From a virus, in IMG/VR virus record IMGVR_UViG_3300031949_000014: a DNA stretch of 64,000 nucleotides. The stretch is one strand, 5' to 3'. The notes under the pieces were generated by a model that had not been told where the DNA came from, ran no database searches, and was given only the letters and a program-made list of their open reading frames with translations. Positions 1 to 4,784 of this stretch are shown here, piece after piece (position 1 is the first letter of the stretch; each line of letters begins with the position of its first letter). The position numbers and the translations under genes are program-made.

Positions 1-2
1 TG

Positions 3-422
3 TCTGCGCTCAAGCGCAAAAACGGTAAGTTGATGCCTGTTGATGTGGTGAAGCGCGCTCGTTCAAAGGCGAGCGCGCTTCACCGTCACTTCGTTTGGGA
101 CGACACCAAAGCCGCGCATGAACACCGACTGTGGCAAGCACGGGAGTTGATCGTGACCGTGCAAGTCGTGTTCGAAGGGACAGAAGGGCGTGAGGTGCAA
201 AAGTACGTGTCTCTAGCACCAGACCGTCAGAAAGGAGGAGGTTACCGCGAATTGAGCGCTGTGCTCACGAGCGCGAAGCTGCGCGCGGAGTTGTTGCAGA
301 CGGCATTCCGCGAGATGGCGTATTTCCGCGCGAAGTACAAATTCTTGCGCGAGCTGGCAGAAGTCTTCGACGCGATGCTCAGGGTAGAGCAGAAGCTCTC
401 GCGCAAGCGCAAAGCAGCTTGA
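3..422 (+). CDS. Conserved phage hypothetical protein, 5'-truncated by the window edge; directly precedes the pentamer array
   Basis: Frame is open from position 3 (SALKRKNGKLMPVDVVKRARSKASALHRHFVWDDTKAAHEHRLWQARELIV). Matches the phage family pattern NGxLxPxxVVxxARxxxSxLHxxFxWDDxxAAxxxRLxQARxLI. Confidence 0.8.
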   Translation, partial: SALKRKNGKLMPVDVVKRARSKASALHRHFVWDDTKAAHEHRLWQARELIVTVQVVFEGTEGREVQKYVSLAPDRQKGGGYRELSAVLTSAKLRAELLQTAFREMAYFRAKYKFLRELAEVFDAMLRVEQKLSRKRKAA

Positions 423-430
423 GGTTTTTA

Positions 431-882
431 GGCACGGCAGCGCAAGGTTTGGCTGGGCGCGACATGGTGTGGCAGGTGTGGCATGACAAGATGAGGCATG
501 GTTCGGCACGGCAGGCTCGGTTCGGTGGGCTAGGCCTGGCATGGGTAGGCACGGCAGGTGTGGTGTGGCAGGGCGTGGTACGGGTTGGTGCGGTTTGGTC
601 CGGCGGGCGCGGCAAGGCATGGTGTGGCACGGTACGGTTGGCGCGGCAGGTTTGGCCCGACGCGGTTTGTAAAGGCAGGGCGCGGTAAGGCACGGCTCGG
701 TGCGGCAGGCTGGGTTAGGCGAGGCACGGTTAGGTGCGGTTTGGTTAGGTATGGCGCGGCAGGTTCGGCGGGGCGCGGCCAGTCATGGTTTGGTAAGGCG
801 TGGCGCGGCAGGCGTGGCGCGGCAGGCGCGGCAGGCGAGGCAAGGCCGGGTATGGTCAGGCGCGGAATGGCGAGGCCGGCAA
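431..882 (+). repeat. Degenerate GGY-NN pentamer array, segmented by GGCA tetramers; candidate guide-type ncRNA (VIPR-like)
   Basis: Manual parse: 80 pentamers (70 begin GGC/GGT) plus 13 tetramers (9 GGCA) = 452 nt. Variable NN positions, no credible ORF. Confidence 0.95.
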
Positions 883-890
883 AGGGTGTG

Positions 891-923
891 GCACCGAGCC
901 CAACATCGGTGCGTTTCTTTCTT
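891..923 (+). terminator. Rho-independent terminator closing the array
   Basis: Stem GCACCGA (891-897)/TCGGTGC (906-912), 8-nt loop, then GTTTCTTTCTT. Confidence 0.8.
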
Positions 924-964
924 GCGCAAGTGAATAGTCCCTGCTACCTCCCGGTCTACCCCTC

Positions 965-3055
965 GTGCCCGCGCCCGCTGCCGCTGTTGAGACCCGCGAA
1001 GCTGTCCTGAAGAGGATCAAATGGGAGCGCCCCGGCAACGCGTGGAAGCTCCTGCAGATGACCAATGGCCAGACCTGGAAGGGCGCCGTCGGTGACGTCC
1101 TGCCGGGTGCATTCTTGAAGGCCGAGGGCGTCGAGGTCACGGACAACTTCGGCCTCGCGTTCGAGGTCAAGACGCTCCTCAGCTCGGTCTTGAAGGGCGC
1201 CGCCGGCGTCGAGGCCTGGATGACGTACCGCATGCCAGAGATCGGCGCTGTTCGTGCCCGCGCCCTGGTCGAGCGTTTCGGCGAGGACCTCGGGGCCACC
1301 ATCTTGAACACGCCTGCGGCGTTGGCGACCGTGCCAGGCATCACGATGGAGCGCGCGACCGCCATCCAGACGGCCTACCTCGGCTACCAGGATGAGCTCG
1401 CTTGGGTGCCGAAGCTCGTCAACAACGGCCTGCAGATGGCCCACGCCCTTGCCACTTTCAAGGCCCACGGCGTCGGCCTCGAGCAGGTCTTGGACACGGA
1501 CCCGTACGTGTTGGTGGACGTCGAGGGGCTCAGTTTCGAGGTCGTGGACGCCCTGGCGCGCCGTCTGGGCATGTCCGAGAAGGACCCCCGCCGCATGCGC
1601 GCCTGGGTGCGCAACATGCTCGAAGAGGACCTCGACGAAGGCCACTGCAACCGGCCGCTGGTCGAGGTCATCGTCGCCATCGCTAAGTGGGGTTTCCCCG
1701 CCCGCGAGGTCATCGACTTGCTGAAGCCCTCGAAGCACCTCTGGATCGAGGAGAAGACCATCTCTCTCGCGCGCATCGCCTACGCCGAGCGCCGGGTCGC
1801 CGCGGGGGTCCGAGGGCTGGTTGAGCAGGGACAGCGCGAGCTGGGCGAGGTCGAGTTGCCCGAGAGCCTCGACGCGTCGCAGAAGGCCGCCGCGCTCGCT
1901 CTCCTGGTCGAGCCCATCGTCGTCATGACCGGCGGGCCGGGCGTGGGCAAGACGCATACGCTCAAGAGCGCCCTGGACGTCATCGAATCCCGCGGCGAGC
2001 GCCCGGTCCTCGCGGCGTTCACCGGCAAGGCCGCCAAGCGCATGTCGGAGGTCACGGGGCGCCCGGCGAGCACGATTCACAAGCTCATCGGTTGGACGCC
2101 GACGGGTTGGAAGTGCGGTCCGGGCGAGCCTATTGCTGCGGACGTCATCGTCATCGACGAGGCCTCGATGGTCGACGTCGAACTCGCCGCGGCGCTCCTC
2201 GACGCCATCGGCGAGGGCACCAGGCTCATTTTGGTGGGCGACGTCGACCAAATACCTCCCGTTGGTCCGGGGCAGCCCTTGGTCGACATCATTCGTTCTG
2301 CGAAGGTTCCGGTGCATACGCTCACGAAGACGCACCGACAGTCGGCGAAAAGTTGGGTCATCGACAACGCTCGACGCATCATCAACGGGGAGGTGCCGAA
2401 CCTCGAGAGCGACGGCAGCTTCGATTTCATGGCGTGCACGGATTCGGACATGATTGTGGCTGTCGTCGTCGCGATGCAGAAGAAGTTCCCGAACGTGCAG
2501 GTCTTGACGCCGGAGCACAAGAAGGGCGCCGGCACCGTTCGCCTAAACAACGAGATTCAGGCTGCCGTCAACCCGCGCTCGAAAGAACAGTGGGCCTCGT
2601 TCATCGAGTCCAACGGCTGCAGGATTTTCGCCGGCGACCGCGTCATCTACACCAGGAACCAGCTCGGCTTGGTCAACGGCGACCTCGGTCTCGTCGAGGA
2701 CGTCGAAGTCATCGGCAACAGGAAGGTCGTCACCGTCCGCTTTGTTGGCGTCGAGAATCCAGATCCTGAGAGCATCGACGGCCTCTTCAAGCTGCAGGAC
2801 GGCAACGTGCGGCCGCTGCAGCTCGCGTACGCGCTGACCGTGCACAAGTTCCAGGGGTCGGAGCACCCCGAGGTCGTGGTCGTCGCCGACGAGGCCCACT
2901 GGAGCTTCCGCCGGCAGCTTCTCTACACCGCGGTCACGCGCACGTCCGACAAGCTCGGCATCGTCGGCTCGCGCGAGGCCGTTGCGCGCGCGGTTGCGAA
3001 GCCCAGGGACACGAATCGCAGGACGAGGTTGGTGGAGAGGATTGGTGGAGCGTGA
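965..3055 (+). CDS. recD2: RecD2-like SF1B helicase
   Basis: HhH (TVPGITMERATAI), Walker A GGPGVGKT, Walker B VIDEASM, LVGDVDQIPPVG, LTKTHRQ, AYALTVHKFQGSE, LLYTAVTR. Confidence 0.93.
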   Translation: MPAPAAAVETREAVLKRIKWERPGNAWKLLQMTNGQTWKGAVGDVLPGAFLKAEGVEVTDNFGLAFEVKTLLSSVLKGAAGVEAWMTYRMPEIGAVRARALVERFGEDLGATILNTPAALATVPGITMERATAIQTAYLGYQDELAWVPKLVNNGLQMAHALATFKAHGVGLEQVLDTDPYVLVDVEGLSFEVVDALARRLGMSEKDPRRMRAWVRNMLEEDLDEGHCNRPLVEVIVAIAKWGFPAREVIDLLKPSKHLWIEEKTISLARIAYAERRVAAGVRGLVEQGQRELGEVELPESLDASQKAAALALLVEPIVVMTGGPGVGKTHTLKSALDVIESRGERPVLAAFTGKAAKRMSEVTGRPASTIHKLIGWTPTGWKCGPGEPIAADVIVIDEASMVDVELAAALLDAIGEGTRLILVGDVDQIPPVGPGQPLVDIIRSAKVPVHTLTKTHRQSAKSWVIDNARRIINGEVPNLESDGSFDFMACTDSDMIVAVVVAMQKKFPNVQVLTPEHKKGAGTVRLNNEIQAAVNPRSKEQWASFIESNGCRIFAGDRVIYTRNQLGLVNGDLGLVEDVEVIGNRKVVTVRFVGVENPDPESIDGLFKLQDGNVRPLQLAYALTVHKFQGSEHPEVVVVADEAHWSFRRQLLYTAVTRTSDKLGIVGSREAVARAVAKPRDTNRRTRLVERIGGA

Positions 3056-3980: not shown

Positions 3981-4291
3981 CCGACGACGACATGCTCGAG
4001 CGCCTCCCCCGTCTCGACACCGTCGACCCGCGGAAGGGTTCAGGGCAAGAGCCAGACAAGGCTCCAGACCCGGAGAAGAGCCGCTTCGAGAGCTGGTTCA
4101 TCGGACAGTTTGGCAACCGCCCCGCTCAGAAGAGCGCCGGTAGGTTGTCCGACGCGGTCGCGGTCGCCAAGCAGAACCTGCGCTTGGCTGAGGAGATGTT
4201 CGAGCGCACCGTCCAGTGGGAACACCAGTACGACGCTGCGTTGAAGGCGTGGCGCGAGCGTGAGCGGATGCGCGAGGTTGAGGGGCGATGA
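3977..4291 (+). CDS. Hypothetical protein
   Basis: Coupled by stop/start overlaps in the early gene run. Confidence 0.6.
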   Translation: MTDDDMLERLPRLDTVDPRKGSGQEPDKAPDPEKSRFESWFIGQFGNRPAQKSAGRLSDAVAVAKQNLRLAEEMFERTVQWEHQYDAALKAWRERERMREVEGR

Positions 4292-4509
4292 CGCAGTCCG
4301 ACTACTACCACGAGAAGTACGACATCTCTCTCGATACGTGGCTCGCAGATCGTCGCGAAGGCCTATCGTCTTTCGCTGCGTGGTGGGAAAAGCAAAACGC
4401 GATTGATCCAACGCGCTTTCCGCTGAAGATGTTGGCGGGCGACTGGGACGAGCAGATAGAACTTTGGGGAAGCGCGGCGGTTGCTCCTGCCAAGGCTGAA
4501 GGGCGATGA
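4288..4509 (+). CDS. Hypothetical protein
   Basis: ATGA overlap with the previous gene. Confidence 0.6.
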   Translation: MTQSDYYHEKYDISLDTWLADRREGLSSFAAWWEKQNAIDPTRFPLKMLAGDWDEQIELWGSAAVAPAKAEGR

Positions 4510-4784
4510 AGTCTCCTTTGAGAACTCTGAGGCTGCTCTCTTCCCTCTTCTTGCAGGACGCACCGCCGACATACGACCGCACGGGCTACGACATCGGCCG
4601 CCGCGTGCGTTGGCTCGACAGAGAGGGGAAGACGATGCGCGGCGTAGTTTACGGGACTGACAAGCTGACGATGCCGGCGTCGGAATTCGGGGAGGAGCAG
4701 AGCATGATCTGCCTCTTGATCCGAGATGACGAGGGTCGCGAGTGGAGTGTTGGACCCGGTGTCGAACTCCAGGACGACGAATGA
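4506..4784 (+). CDS. Hypothetical protein, SH3-like beta barrel
   Basis: ATGA overlap; IGRRVRW...RGVVYG...WSVGPG. Confidence 0.6.
   Translation: MKSPLRTLRLLSSLFLQDAPPTYDRTGYDIGRRVRWLDREGKTMRGVVYGTDKLTMPASEFGEEQSMICLLIRDDEGREWSVGPGVELQDDE

What the first reader, a model, noticed from the sequence alone, without database searches (positions are those of the whole stretch)
431..882. The array is subdivided into about 10 units by a GGYRY-GGCA punctuation mark
Seen: nine GGCA tetramers break the 5-nt phase, ending at 474, 513, 556, 648, 707, 761, 810, 824 and 833. The pentamer before each always ends in RY (GT, AC, AC, GC, GC, GC, GC, GC, GC). Most units hold 7-11 pentamers; 557-648 may be two units split at GGCG 602-605. 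Units 811-824 and 825-833 are stubs. Example NN strings: 708-761 TG TA GA AC TA GC TT TA AT; 649-707 TT CC GC TT AA AG GC AA AC TC; 762-810 TC GG GC CA AT TT AA GT. Inference: GGCA marks processing or boundary sites giving several distinct guides, and the stubs are slippage products, which suggests how the array is reprogrammed.
Basis: partly seen in the sequence, partly recalled or inferred. Interest (0 to 1): 0.7.

Follow-up and report, generated by a model that had tools for sequence, protein, structure and literature searches.

The report
Guide boundaries in a phage VIPR array
The five-base repeat tract is the guide-RNA array of a phage VIPR system (a CRISPR-related DNA-silencing system first described in 2026), and the four-base GGCA steps are real, conserved marks that separate one guide from the next, a layout the discoverers already call a "staggered" array.

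Summary
Window 431-882 is a run of about 80 GGY-NN pentamers.

I add a tenth GGCA at 878-881 and four other 4-nt slips: GGTG 524, GGCG 602, GGTT 636 and GGCC 874.

The tract is the vrRNA array of a VIPR system (bioRxiv 10.64898/2026.04.26.720920). The vap gene is window 3-422. The vipr gene, a Cas7-like RAMP, lies just upstream of the window.

In 160 related phage loci from two Vipr subfamilies, 76-80% of phase breaks are GGCA. Breaks of -1 outnumber +1 by about 20 to 1. Marks are spaced 7-13 pentamers apart, with a mode of 9-10.

A close relative (L084) shares the flanks and one whole unit, but the neighbouring units differ. It lacks the two stubs, which are exact tandem copies of the preceding unit's end.

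In relatives, four units bounded by such marks match rival vipr genes under the published NN-x rule.

The RY rule is real here and in L084 but is specific to this lineage. RNA processing could not be tested, and no target was found for this window's own guides.

This is a new example of a known kind (fig. S18, "staggered vrRNA arrays"). This scan has reported the same GGCA step on other genomes.

The parts
3..422 (+). vap, the VIPR accessory gene. The window start cuts its 5' end; the full gene is 150 aa.
   Evidence: phrog_15946, no Pfam hit. It is homologous to Gordonia phage UmaThurman gp41 (33% identity) and Mycobacterium phage Quico gp58. A homologue lies beside vipr in 77/80 and 74/80 loci. 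The contig gene list shows 216-aa and 150-aa genes directly before the array. The AF2 model has pLDDT 93.5 and gives only weak winged-helix-like PDB hits.
431..474 (+). guide unit 1: 8 pentamers + GGCA
   Evidence: parse
475..513 (+). guide unit 2: 7 pentamers + GGCA
   Evidence: parse
514..556 (+). guide unit 3: 7 pentamers with an internal 4-nt slip (GGTG 524-527) + GGCA
   Evidence: Parse. L084 has no homologous unit, so the nature of the GGTG slip is open.
557..605 (+). guide unit 4: 9 pentamers, closed by the variant mark GGCG 602-605
   Evidence: The next unit is homologous to an L084 unit that follows a GGCA mark.
606..648 (+). guide unit 5: same NN string as L084 2043-2086 apart from one dinucleotide. 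GGTT 636-639 is a 1-nt deletion of the relative's GATTT. The unit ends in GGCA.
649..707 (+). guide unit 6: 11 pentamers + GGCA. Its last five pentamers are shared with L084 unit 1945-1993, so it is a chimeric unit.
708..761 (+). guide unit 7: 10 pentamers + GGCA
762..810 (+). guide unit 8: 9 pentamers + GGCA, identical to L084 2229-2277, with different neighbours on both sides
811..833 (+). two stubs (811-824 and 825-833): exact tandem copies of the last 14 and 9 nt of unit 8, absent from L084
   Evidence: TRF finds period 14 at 95% identity
834..881 (+). guide unit 9: 8 pentamers + GGCC + a terminal GGCA (878-881)
   Evidence: L084 ends GGCA GGCA at the homologous place.
882..922 (+). conserved 3' tail with an intrinsic-terminator-like hairpin (891-912) and a T-rich run
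   Evidence: The stretch is 90% identical to L084, whereas most array units differ in their NN content.
965..3055 (+). RecD2-like SF1 helicase, the downstream neighbour. It is not shown to belong to the system.
   Evidence: Pfam AAA_30, HHH_RecD2 and UvrD_C_2. It is absent from the Quico, Saal and UmaThurman loci.

Best explanation
Window 431-881 is a staggered vrRNA array of a VIPR system.

The operon vipr (216 aa, just upstream of the window), vap (window 3-422) and the array is most likely read as one + strand transcript that ends at the terminator at 891-922.

From the published SUSP1 structures, one Vipr protomer binds each 5-nt repeat. It hides the GGY and presents the NN pair, and the NN pairs together read double-stranded DNA as NN-x-NN-x.

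Each GGCA is a repeat one base short, which shifts the register by -1. I infer that a Vipr filament cannot run through this step, so each block of 7-11 pentamers forms its own guide. The window has nine guides plus two duplicated stubs. I infer that the RNA is then cut or trimmed near GGCA|GG.

The guides probably silence genes of rival phages, as guides in related arrays appear to do to rival vipr genes.

Shown here: the anatomy, the conservation of the mark, the cassette behaviour of units, the Vipr and Vap identities, and NN-x matches in relatives.

Inferred: co-transcription, filament termination at the step, cleavage, and the targets of this window's own guides.
For: (1) Vipr identity.
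- The contig carries a 216-aa gene overlapping the start of vap.
- The same gene in L085/L084, whose vap is 94-95% identical, aligns to the actinophage Vipr family at hhalign probability 97.6%, E = 4e-12.
- Profiles of both subfamilies hit PDB 36pp 'SUSP1 Vipr protein' at E = 2e-6 and 1e-5, with the G-loop GVGEWRP/GVGEGR aligned to GVGDWRP.
- The AF2 model has pLDDT 91.7, and its top 50 PDB fold matches are all CRISPR-Cas effector entries of types III and VII, mostly Csm complexes.

(2) The mark is conserved.
- GGCA makes up 451/563 and 242/319 of the four-nt units. There are only 26 and 14 six-nt units. Spacing has a mode of 9-10.
- Nearly all arrays lie on the vipr strand (115 of 117 in the window's own subfamily; all but one in the other).

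(3) Units behave as cassettes.
- Only 2 of 299 complete units are shared between loci, and both have different neighbours.
- The window and L084 share their flanks (94% and 90% identity), while most array units differ.

(4) Function of units.
- L018:3624, L028:3634 and L042:3618 are each the first unit after that phage's own vipr. L151:2826 lies between a CGCA and a TGCA mark.
- These units match conserved parts of rival vipr genes with 1-3 mismatches in 18-24 bases. The skipped base falls on the codon wobble position. Their own vipr genes show 4-8 mismatches.
- Real hits number 31 against 5.5 for shuffled guides.

(5) Literature.
- vrRNAs have 9-16 repeats and follow the 1-nt skip rule.
- Fig. 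[quoted passage not shown]
Against: - There are no RNA data, so neither transcription nor ends at GGCA are shown. The preprint itself says that only the ribozyme-interspersed and single-vrRNA layouts were confirmed by sRNA-seq.
- The vipr gene lies outside the window and its DNA could not be fetched, so its identity rests on near-identical relatives.
- No convincing target was found for any of the window's own guides.
- Three of the four anti-vipr units begin at the array start, so their 5' boundary is trivial. Only one (L151) is bounded by a mark on its 5' side.
- Non-GGCA slips inside units 3 and 5 would break the register within a guide if the step really stops a filament.
Confidence: 0.8

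Rival explanations
1. The marks phase the filaments but are not cut. The array acts as one long RNA carrying a string of separate Vipr filaments. The -1 step only breaks the helical register, so no nuclease and no per-guide 3' handle is needed.
For: - No structured tail or ribozyme lies between units; only the last unit is followed by a hairpin.
- No nuclease domain was found in Vap.
- In the published structure, one protomer binds G1 and G2 and the next holds Y3, so a missing base should disturb packing between protomers.
Against: The fig. S18 legend speaks of 'individual processed vrRNAs'. Unprotected linkers in a long RNA are likely to be trimmed by host RNases anyway. Nothing here distinguishes the two readings.
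Confidence: 0.3
2. GGCA is a scar of how units are gained. Each new guide arrives with, or recombines at, a fixed GGCA end. The mark then records array growth and is not a signal read by the machinery.
For: - Chimeric units and whole-unit swaps occur between the window and L084.
- Tandem copies of unit ends are frequent: 13 of 31 short units, and a run of about seven tandem copies in L041.
- Unit ends in this lineage look homogenised (GGCGC GGCA).
Against: A neutral scar would decay. Yet the mark is kept across two Vipr subfamilies that are only about 25% identical, while the NN content is almost never shared. This reading does not exclude the main one.
Confidence: 0.15
3. The 4-nt units are random indels or assembly errors in a degenerate repeat and have no meaning.
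For: Some slips do look like this. GGTT 636-639 is a 1-nt deletion relative to L084, and GGTG 524-527 has no counterpart.
Against: - 76-80% of all four-nt units are one word, GGCA, while only about 25% of pentamers start with it.
- Steps of -1 outnumber +1 by about 20 to 1.
- The spacing is regular.
Confidence: 0.02
4. The tract is a DNA-level element, such as iterons of a replication origin next to the helicase, or a protein-coding repeat.
For: It lies directly upstream of a RecD2-like helicase. Mechanical ORFs cross it, and GenBank annotates such ORFs in UmaThurman and several cluster F phages.
Against: - A 5-nt period with -1 steps cannot code for protein.
- The same arrays follow vipr-vap in phages that have no adjacent helicase.
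- The association with a Vipr homologue and the NN-x matches fit an RNA guide.
Confidence: 0.02

Closest known systems
VIPR systems with 'staggered' vrRNA arrays (bioRxiv 10.64898/2026.04.26.720920, fig. S18)
   Same: - A Vipr (lone RAMP) gene plus a vap gene plus a continuous GGY-NN array with no spacer or tail between guides.
- Successive guides abut with a 1-nt offset, which is what a 4-nt GGCA unit produces.
- Guide length is about 7-13 repeats.
- It is phage-borne.
   Different: I could read only the legend, not the figure, so I cannot say whether GGCA itself, its frequency or its spacing are described there. This layout was not among those the authors confirmed by sRNA-seq. The RY-ending last pentamer in this lineage is not mentioned in the text held.
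Type II VIPR of Escherichia phage SUSP1 and a Pseudomonas fulva prophage (same preprint; structures in 10.64898/2026.04.26.720927; PDB 36pp)
   Same: - A homologous Vipr protein (profile E = 1e-5 to 2e-6) with conserved G-loop and thumb motifs.
- The GGY/NN code.
- NN-x targeting with the skipped base on codon wobble positions.
- Guides aimed at rival vipr genes (10.64898/2026.10.15.759431).
   Different: In SUSP1 each vrRNA has its own roughly 40-60 nt pseudoknot tail that caps the filament, and the guides are separate transcripts of about 100 nt. Here the units are separated only by a 4-nt step, and only the last unit has a hairpin. Vipr identity to SUSP1 is low, and the G-loop Trp is Gly in the window's lineage.
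CRISPR arrays and class 1 Cas7 backbones
   Same: A RAMP/Cas7-fold protein polymerises on a guide RNA, and many guides are encoded in one array. The top fold matches are type III and type VII effector complexes, mostly Csm.
   Different: There is no repeat-spacer structure, no Cas6-type hairpin and no adaptation genes. The guide is non-contiguous. The boundary signal is a single missing base, not a 25-40 nt repeat.

Membership tests
VIPR system | A Vipr protein (a lone RAMP with an RRM core, G-loop and thumb) encoded beside the array | tested here: met
   - The gene lies just outside the window: a 216-aa gene overlaps the start of vap in the contig gene list.
- The near-identical relatives L084 and L085 carry it.
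- hhalign to the actinophage Vipr family gives 97.6% probability.
- The subfamily profile hits PDB 36pp SUSP1 Vipr at E = 1e-5.
- The AF2 model has pLDDT 91.7 and matches CRISPR-Cas type III/VII effector entries, mostly Csm complexes.
- The window's own copy was not seen as DNA.
VIPR system | An RNA locus of tandem GGY/NN pentamers with hypervariable NN | tested here: met
   70 of 80 pentamers are canonical. The window and L084 share only one NN string despite 94% identical flanks.
VIPR system | An accessory vap gene in the operon | tested here: met
   Window 3-422. Homologues lie beside vipr in 151 of 160 loci. Which of the published vap1-6 classes it belongs to could not be determined.
VIPR system | Guides read dsDNA by the NN-x (1-nt skip) rule | tested here: inconclusive
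   The rule is met in relatives: four units match rival vipr genes, with 31 real hits against 5.5 shuffled. For the window's own nine guides no convincing target was found.
VIPR system | vrRNAs are expressed and bound by Vipr | not testable with these tools
No wet-lab data exist for this clade in the papers read.
Staggered vrRNA array (fig. S18) | Adjacent guides abut with a 1-nt offset and have no tail, spacer or ribozyme between them | tested here: met
   Ten GGCA steps and one GGCG step occur in the window. No Rfam family, including hammerhead, was found in 1-3000. The mark is conserved family-wide.
Type II VIPR (SUSP1-like) | Each vrRNA carries its own conserved structured 3' tail (a pseudoknot) | tested here: not met
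   Units follow each other directly. Only one hairpin/terminator follows the whole array, at 891-922.

The most novel reading that the evidence does not exclude
A single missing base acts as the whole punctuation system. The 4-nt GGCA step would stop Vipr polymerisation, so one transcript carries many independent guide filaments with no processing nuclease and no per-guide handle. In this lineage the last pentamer (GGY-RY) would belong to the stop signal and not to the guide. Two observations hint at this: the RY constraint in the window and L084, and the fact that in two of four anti-vipr guides all mismatches fall in the last pentamer.
Probability: 0.25. Interest if true: 0.6.

Novelty: new member of a known kind. 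Interest (0 to 1): 0.3.

Why it matters
VIPR is a months-old discovery, and its staggered layout is the one the authors did not test. This analysis gives that layout a measurable grammar. The mark is a GGCA unit (sometimes CGCA) one base short, it recurs every 7-13 repeats, and it is kept across two distant Vipr subfamilies. Units are exchanged as cassettes.

The analysis also points to cultivable BSL-1 hosts in which processing could be mapped: cluster F mycobacteriophages such as Quico and Saal, and Gordonia phage UmaThurman. It further shows that several GenBank phage records annotate false ORFs over these arrays.

For this particular window the result is ordinary. It is one more staggered VIPR array.

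Tried and rejected
- Rfam scan of 1-3000: nothing relevant.
- Own genome: none is held. The contig DNA upstream of the window could not be fetched.
- IMG/VR search with the window's Vap: no close relative.
- Self-targeting: the best matches of all nine guides in the window's 64 kb are no better than those of shuffled guides. The idea that the guides aim at this virus's own promoters is therefore not supported.
- Exact NN-x scans of IMG/VR with units 649, 708 and 762, with and without the last pentamer for 649 and 708: no hits.
- JGI metagenomes: unit 708 gave no hit. Unit 762 (18 fixed bases) gave 26 hits spread over unrelated cellular genes (LysR, HIT, SDR, amylase), which is about what chance predicts.
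- GTDB genomes: unit 649 (22 fixed bases) gave one exact hit, in a Nitro_FeMo-Co gene of an Anaerolineales MAG, with the skip base on wobble positions. About 0.07 hits are expected by chance and there is no mobile-element context, so I treat it as chance.
- Vap fold search in the PDB: no match at E <= 0.001, only weak MarR/PadR-like rows.
- RY before GGCA as a general rule: rejected (39% vs 35% and 41% vs 35%; per-locus test).
- Helicase as a vap: not supported, because the actinophage loci inspected lack it.

Full report
**What is there**

Window 431-882 lies between a 5'-truncated ORF (3-422) and a RecD2-like helicase gene (965-3055). A dynamic-programming parse into GGY-led units of 4, 5 or 6 nt gives 80 pentamers (70 canonical), 13 four-nt units and no six-nt unit.

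The pentamer before each ends in RY. I add GGTG 524-527, GGCG 602-605, GGTT 636-639, GGCC 874-877 and a tenth GGCA at 878-881.

Only 20% of pentamers begin with GGCA, so 9 of 13 slips being GGCA has p = 1.7e-4. RY before the mark is 9/9 against 30/71 elsewhere, p = 9e-4.

**What it is**

A note from the first stage on the same stretch used the word VIPR, and I checked it in the literature. VIPR systems were described in 2026 preprints (10.64898/2026.04.26.720920 and .720927; 10.64898/2026.10.15.759431).
- A lone RAMP protein, Vipr, polymerises with one protomer per 5-nt repeat on vrRNAs made of 9-16 GGY/NN repeats.
- It hides the GGY and presents the NN, and the complex reads dsDNA as NN-x-NN-x.
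- The first paper lists array layouts, among them 'staggered arrays with overlapping vrRNAs'. The fig. S18 legend says individual vrRNAs derive from positions that overlap by 1 nt, and the end of one marks the start of the next. Only the ribozyme-interspersed and single-vrRNA layouts were confirmed by sRNA-seq.

**The proteins**

The window's ORF 3-422 is homologous to Quico gp58 and UmaThurman gp41. These lie beside a roughly 200-aa protein (Quico gp57, UmaThurman gp39) and a GGY-NN array.

That 200-aa family has 3,540 database hits. It matches PDB 36pp 'SUSP1 Vipr protein' at E = 2e-6, with GVGEWRP aligned to GVGDWRP and a shared DLRYRP/SYRP thumb region.

The window's contig (ENA ERZ27256953, 68,966 bp) has a 216-aa gene overlapping the start of the 150-aa gene that continues into the window, but its DNA could not be fetched.

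Two Logan contigs, L084 and L085, carry a Vap 95% identical to the window's and the same 213/216-aa gene.
- That protein aligns to the actinophage Vipr family at 97.6% probability.
- It has 2,025 representative relatives.
- As a profile it hits SUSP1 Vipr at E = 1e-5.
- It folds with pLDDT 91.7, and its top 50 PDB fold matches are all CRISPR-Cas effector entries of types III and VII, mostly Csm complexes.

A Vap homologue accompanies vipr in 151 of 160 loci. Its model (pLDDT 93.5) has no significant PDB match, only weak winged-helix-like rows.

**Is the GGCA step a conserved boundary?**

I fetched 80 IMG/VR loci for each of two Vipr subfamilies that are about 25% identical to each other.

| | Subfamily 1 | Subfamily 2, the window's own |
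|---|---|---|
| Pentamers | 5,516 | 3,567 |
| Four-nt units | 563 | 319 |
| of which GGCA | 451 (80%) | 242 (76%) |
| of which CGCA | 3 | 34 |
| Six-nt units | 26 | 14 |
| Spacing between marks | mode 9-10; 213 of 250 intervals are 7-13 | mode 9 |

Nearly all arrays lie on the vipr strand (115 of 117 in subfamily 2; all but one in subfamily 1). Quico, Saal and UmaThurman show the same grammar.

RY before the mark is not general: 39% against 35%, and 41% against 35%. In a per-locus test, only the window and L084 (10/11, p = 7e-4) stand out among 35 arrays.

**Unit gain and loss**

L084 shares the window's flanks: vap is 94% identical and the tail with terminator 90%. Its array has 12 very regular units, and the first 11 each end in GGCA.
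- Window unit 762-810 is identical to L084 2229-2277, but both neighbours differ.
- Window 606-648 has the same NN string as L084 2043-2086 apart from one dinucleotide. The window's GGTT is a 1-nt deletion of GATTT.
- GGCG 602-605 sits where L084 has GGCA.
- Window unit 649-707 shares only its last five pentamers with an L084 unit.
- Among 299 complete units, only two NN strings recur between loci, and each has different neighbours.
- The stubs 811-833 are absent from L084 and exactly copy the end of unit 8. Across all arrays, 13 of 31 short units are such copies, including a run of about seven tandem copies in L041.

**Do marked units act as guides?**

I scanned about 600 units as NN-x patterns against all fetched loci, with arrays masked. 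This gave 31 hits at 2-3 or fewer mismatches, against 5.5 for shuffled guides.

The excess is four guides aimed at conserved parts of rival vipr genes.
- L018:3624 (10 NN) spells E-K-K-G-D-F-G-T-F-I.
- L028:3634 (12 NN) matches the antisense strand of the same motif.
- L042:3618 (10 NN) matches L028's vipr.
- L151:2826 (9 NN, bounded by a CGCA and a TGCA mark) spells I-K-P-A-N-I-Q-T at the vipr 5' end.

The skipped base is the wobble position. Their own vipr genes mismatch at 4-8 positions. The matches stop at the mark. In L042 and L151 all mismatches lie in the last pentamer. Targeting of rival vipr genes is also reported for SUSP1-family phages.

**The window's own guides**

No target was found.
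- The window's own 64 kb gives nothing better than shuffled guides.
- Exact scans of IMG/VR found nothing.
- In JGI metagenomes, unit 708 gave no hit. Unit 762 gave 26 hits in unrelated cellular genes, about the number chance predicts.
- One exact 22-base hit in an Anaerolineales MAG falls in a housekeeping-type gene, and I treat it as chance.

**Mechanism**

Shown: the anatomy, the conservation of the mark, the cassette behaviour of units, the protein identities, and NN-x matches in relatives.

Inferred:
- The array is co-transcribed with vipr-vap up to the terminator at 891-922.
- The -1 step breaks the protomer register and ends a filament.
- The RNA is then cut or trimmed.

**Verdict**

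The RY rule is specific to this lineage, and slippage explains the stubs but not reprogramming. This is a new example of a known kind. The scan has already reported the same GGCA step on other genomes.

Noticed in passing
window 45-86: A 19-bp G+C-rich hairpin lies inside the vap coding sequence and is followed by a T-containing run. The inverted repeat is also present in L084. Its function is unknown.
   Followed up: no
L003 3969-4292 (Gordonia phage UmaThurman gp40); also BobaPhett gp51, Gorge gp53, DRBy19 gp51 and a Florinda hypothetical protein: GenBank records annotate protein-coding genes over the GGY-NN arrays. The 5-nt period with -1 steps shows these are vrRNA arrays, so the ORFs are almost certainly false. 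At least 27 Mycobacterium (cluster F) and 5 Gordonia phage records carry a Vipr homologue.
   Followed up: partly
L018 3624-3673, L028 3634-3693, L042 3618-3667, L151 2826-2870: The unit nearest a phage's own vipr gene is often a guide against conserved motifs of rival vipr genes (sense or antisense, with the skip base on wobble positions). It mismatches the phage's own copy.
   Followed up: yes
L089 4736-4767: The 22 fixed bases of window unit 649-707 match exactly, in wobble phase, a Nitro_FeMo-Co-domain gene of an Anaerolineales MAG. About 0.07 such hits are expected by chance and there is no phage context.
   Followed up: partly
L041 array 4050-4539: About seven tandem copies of the 14-nt stub GGCAC GGCTA GGCA occur here. 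This is an extreme case of the unit-end duplication seen in the window at 811-833.
   Followed up: partly
L090-L169 arrays: In the window's own Vipr subfamily, 34 of 319 four-nt marks are CGCA, not GGCA. The constant part of the mark therefore seems to be GCA followed by GG.
   Followed up: partly
window 404-430: A weak 5-bp hairpin plus TTTTT spans the vap stop codon just before the first pentamer, and it is conserved in L084. It could attenuate read-through into the array.
   Followed up: no
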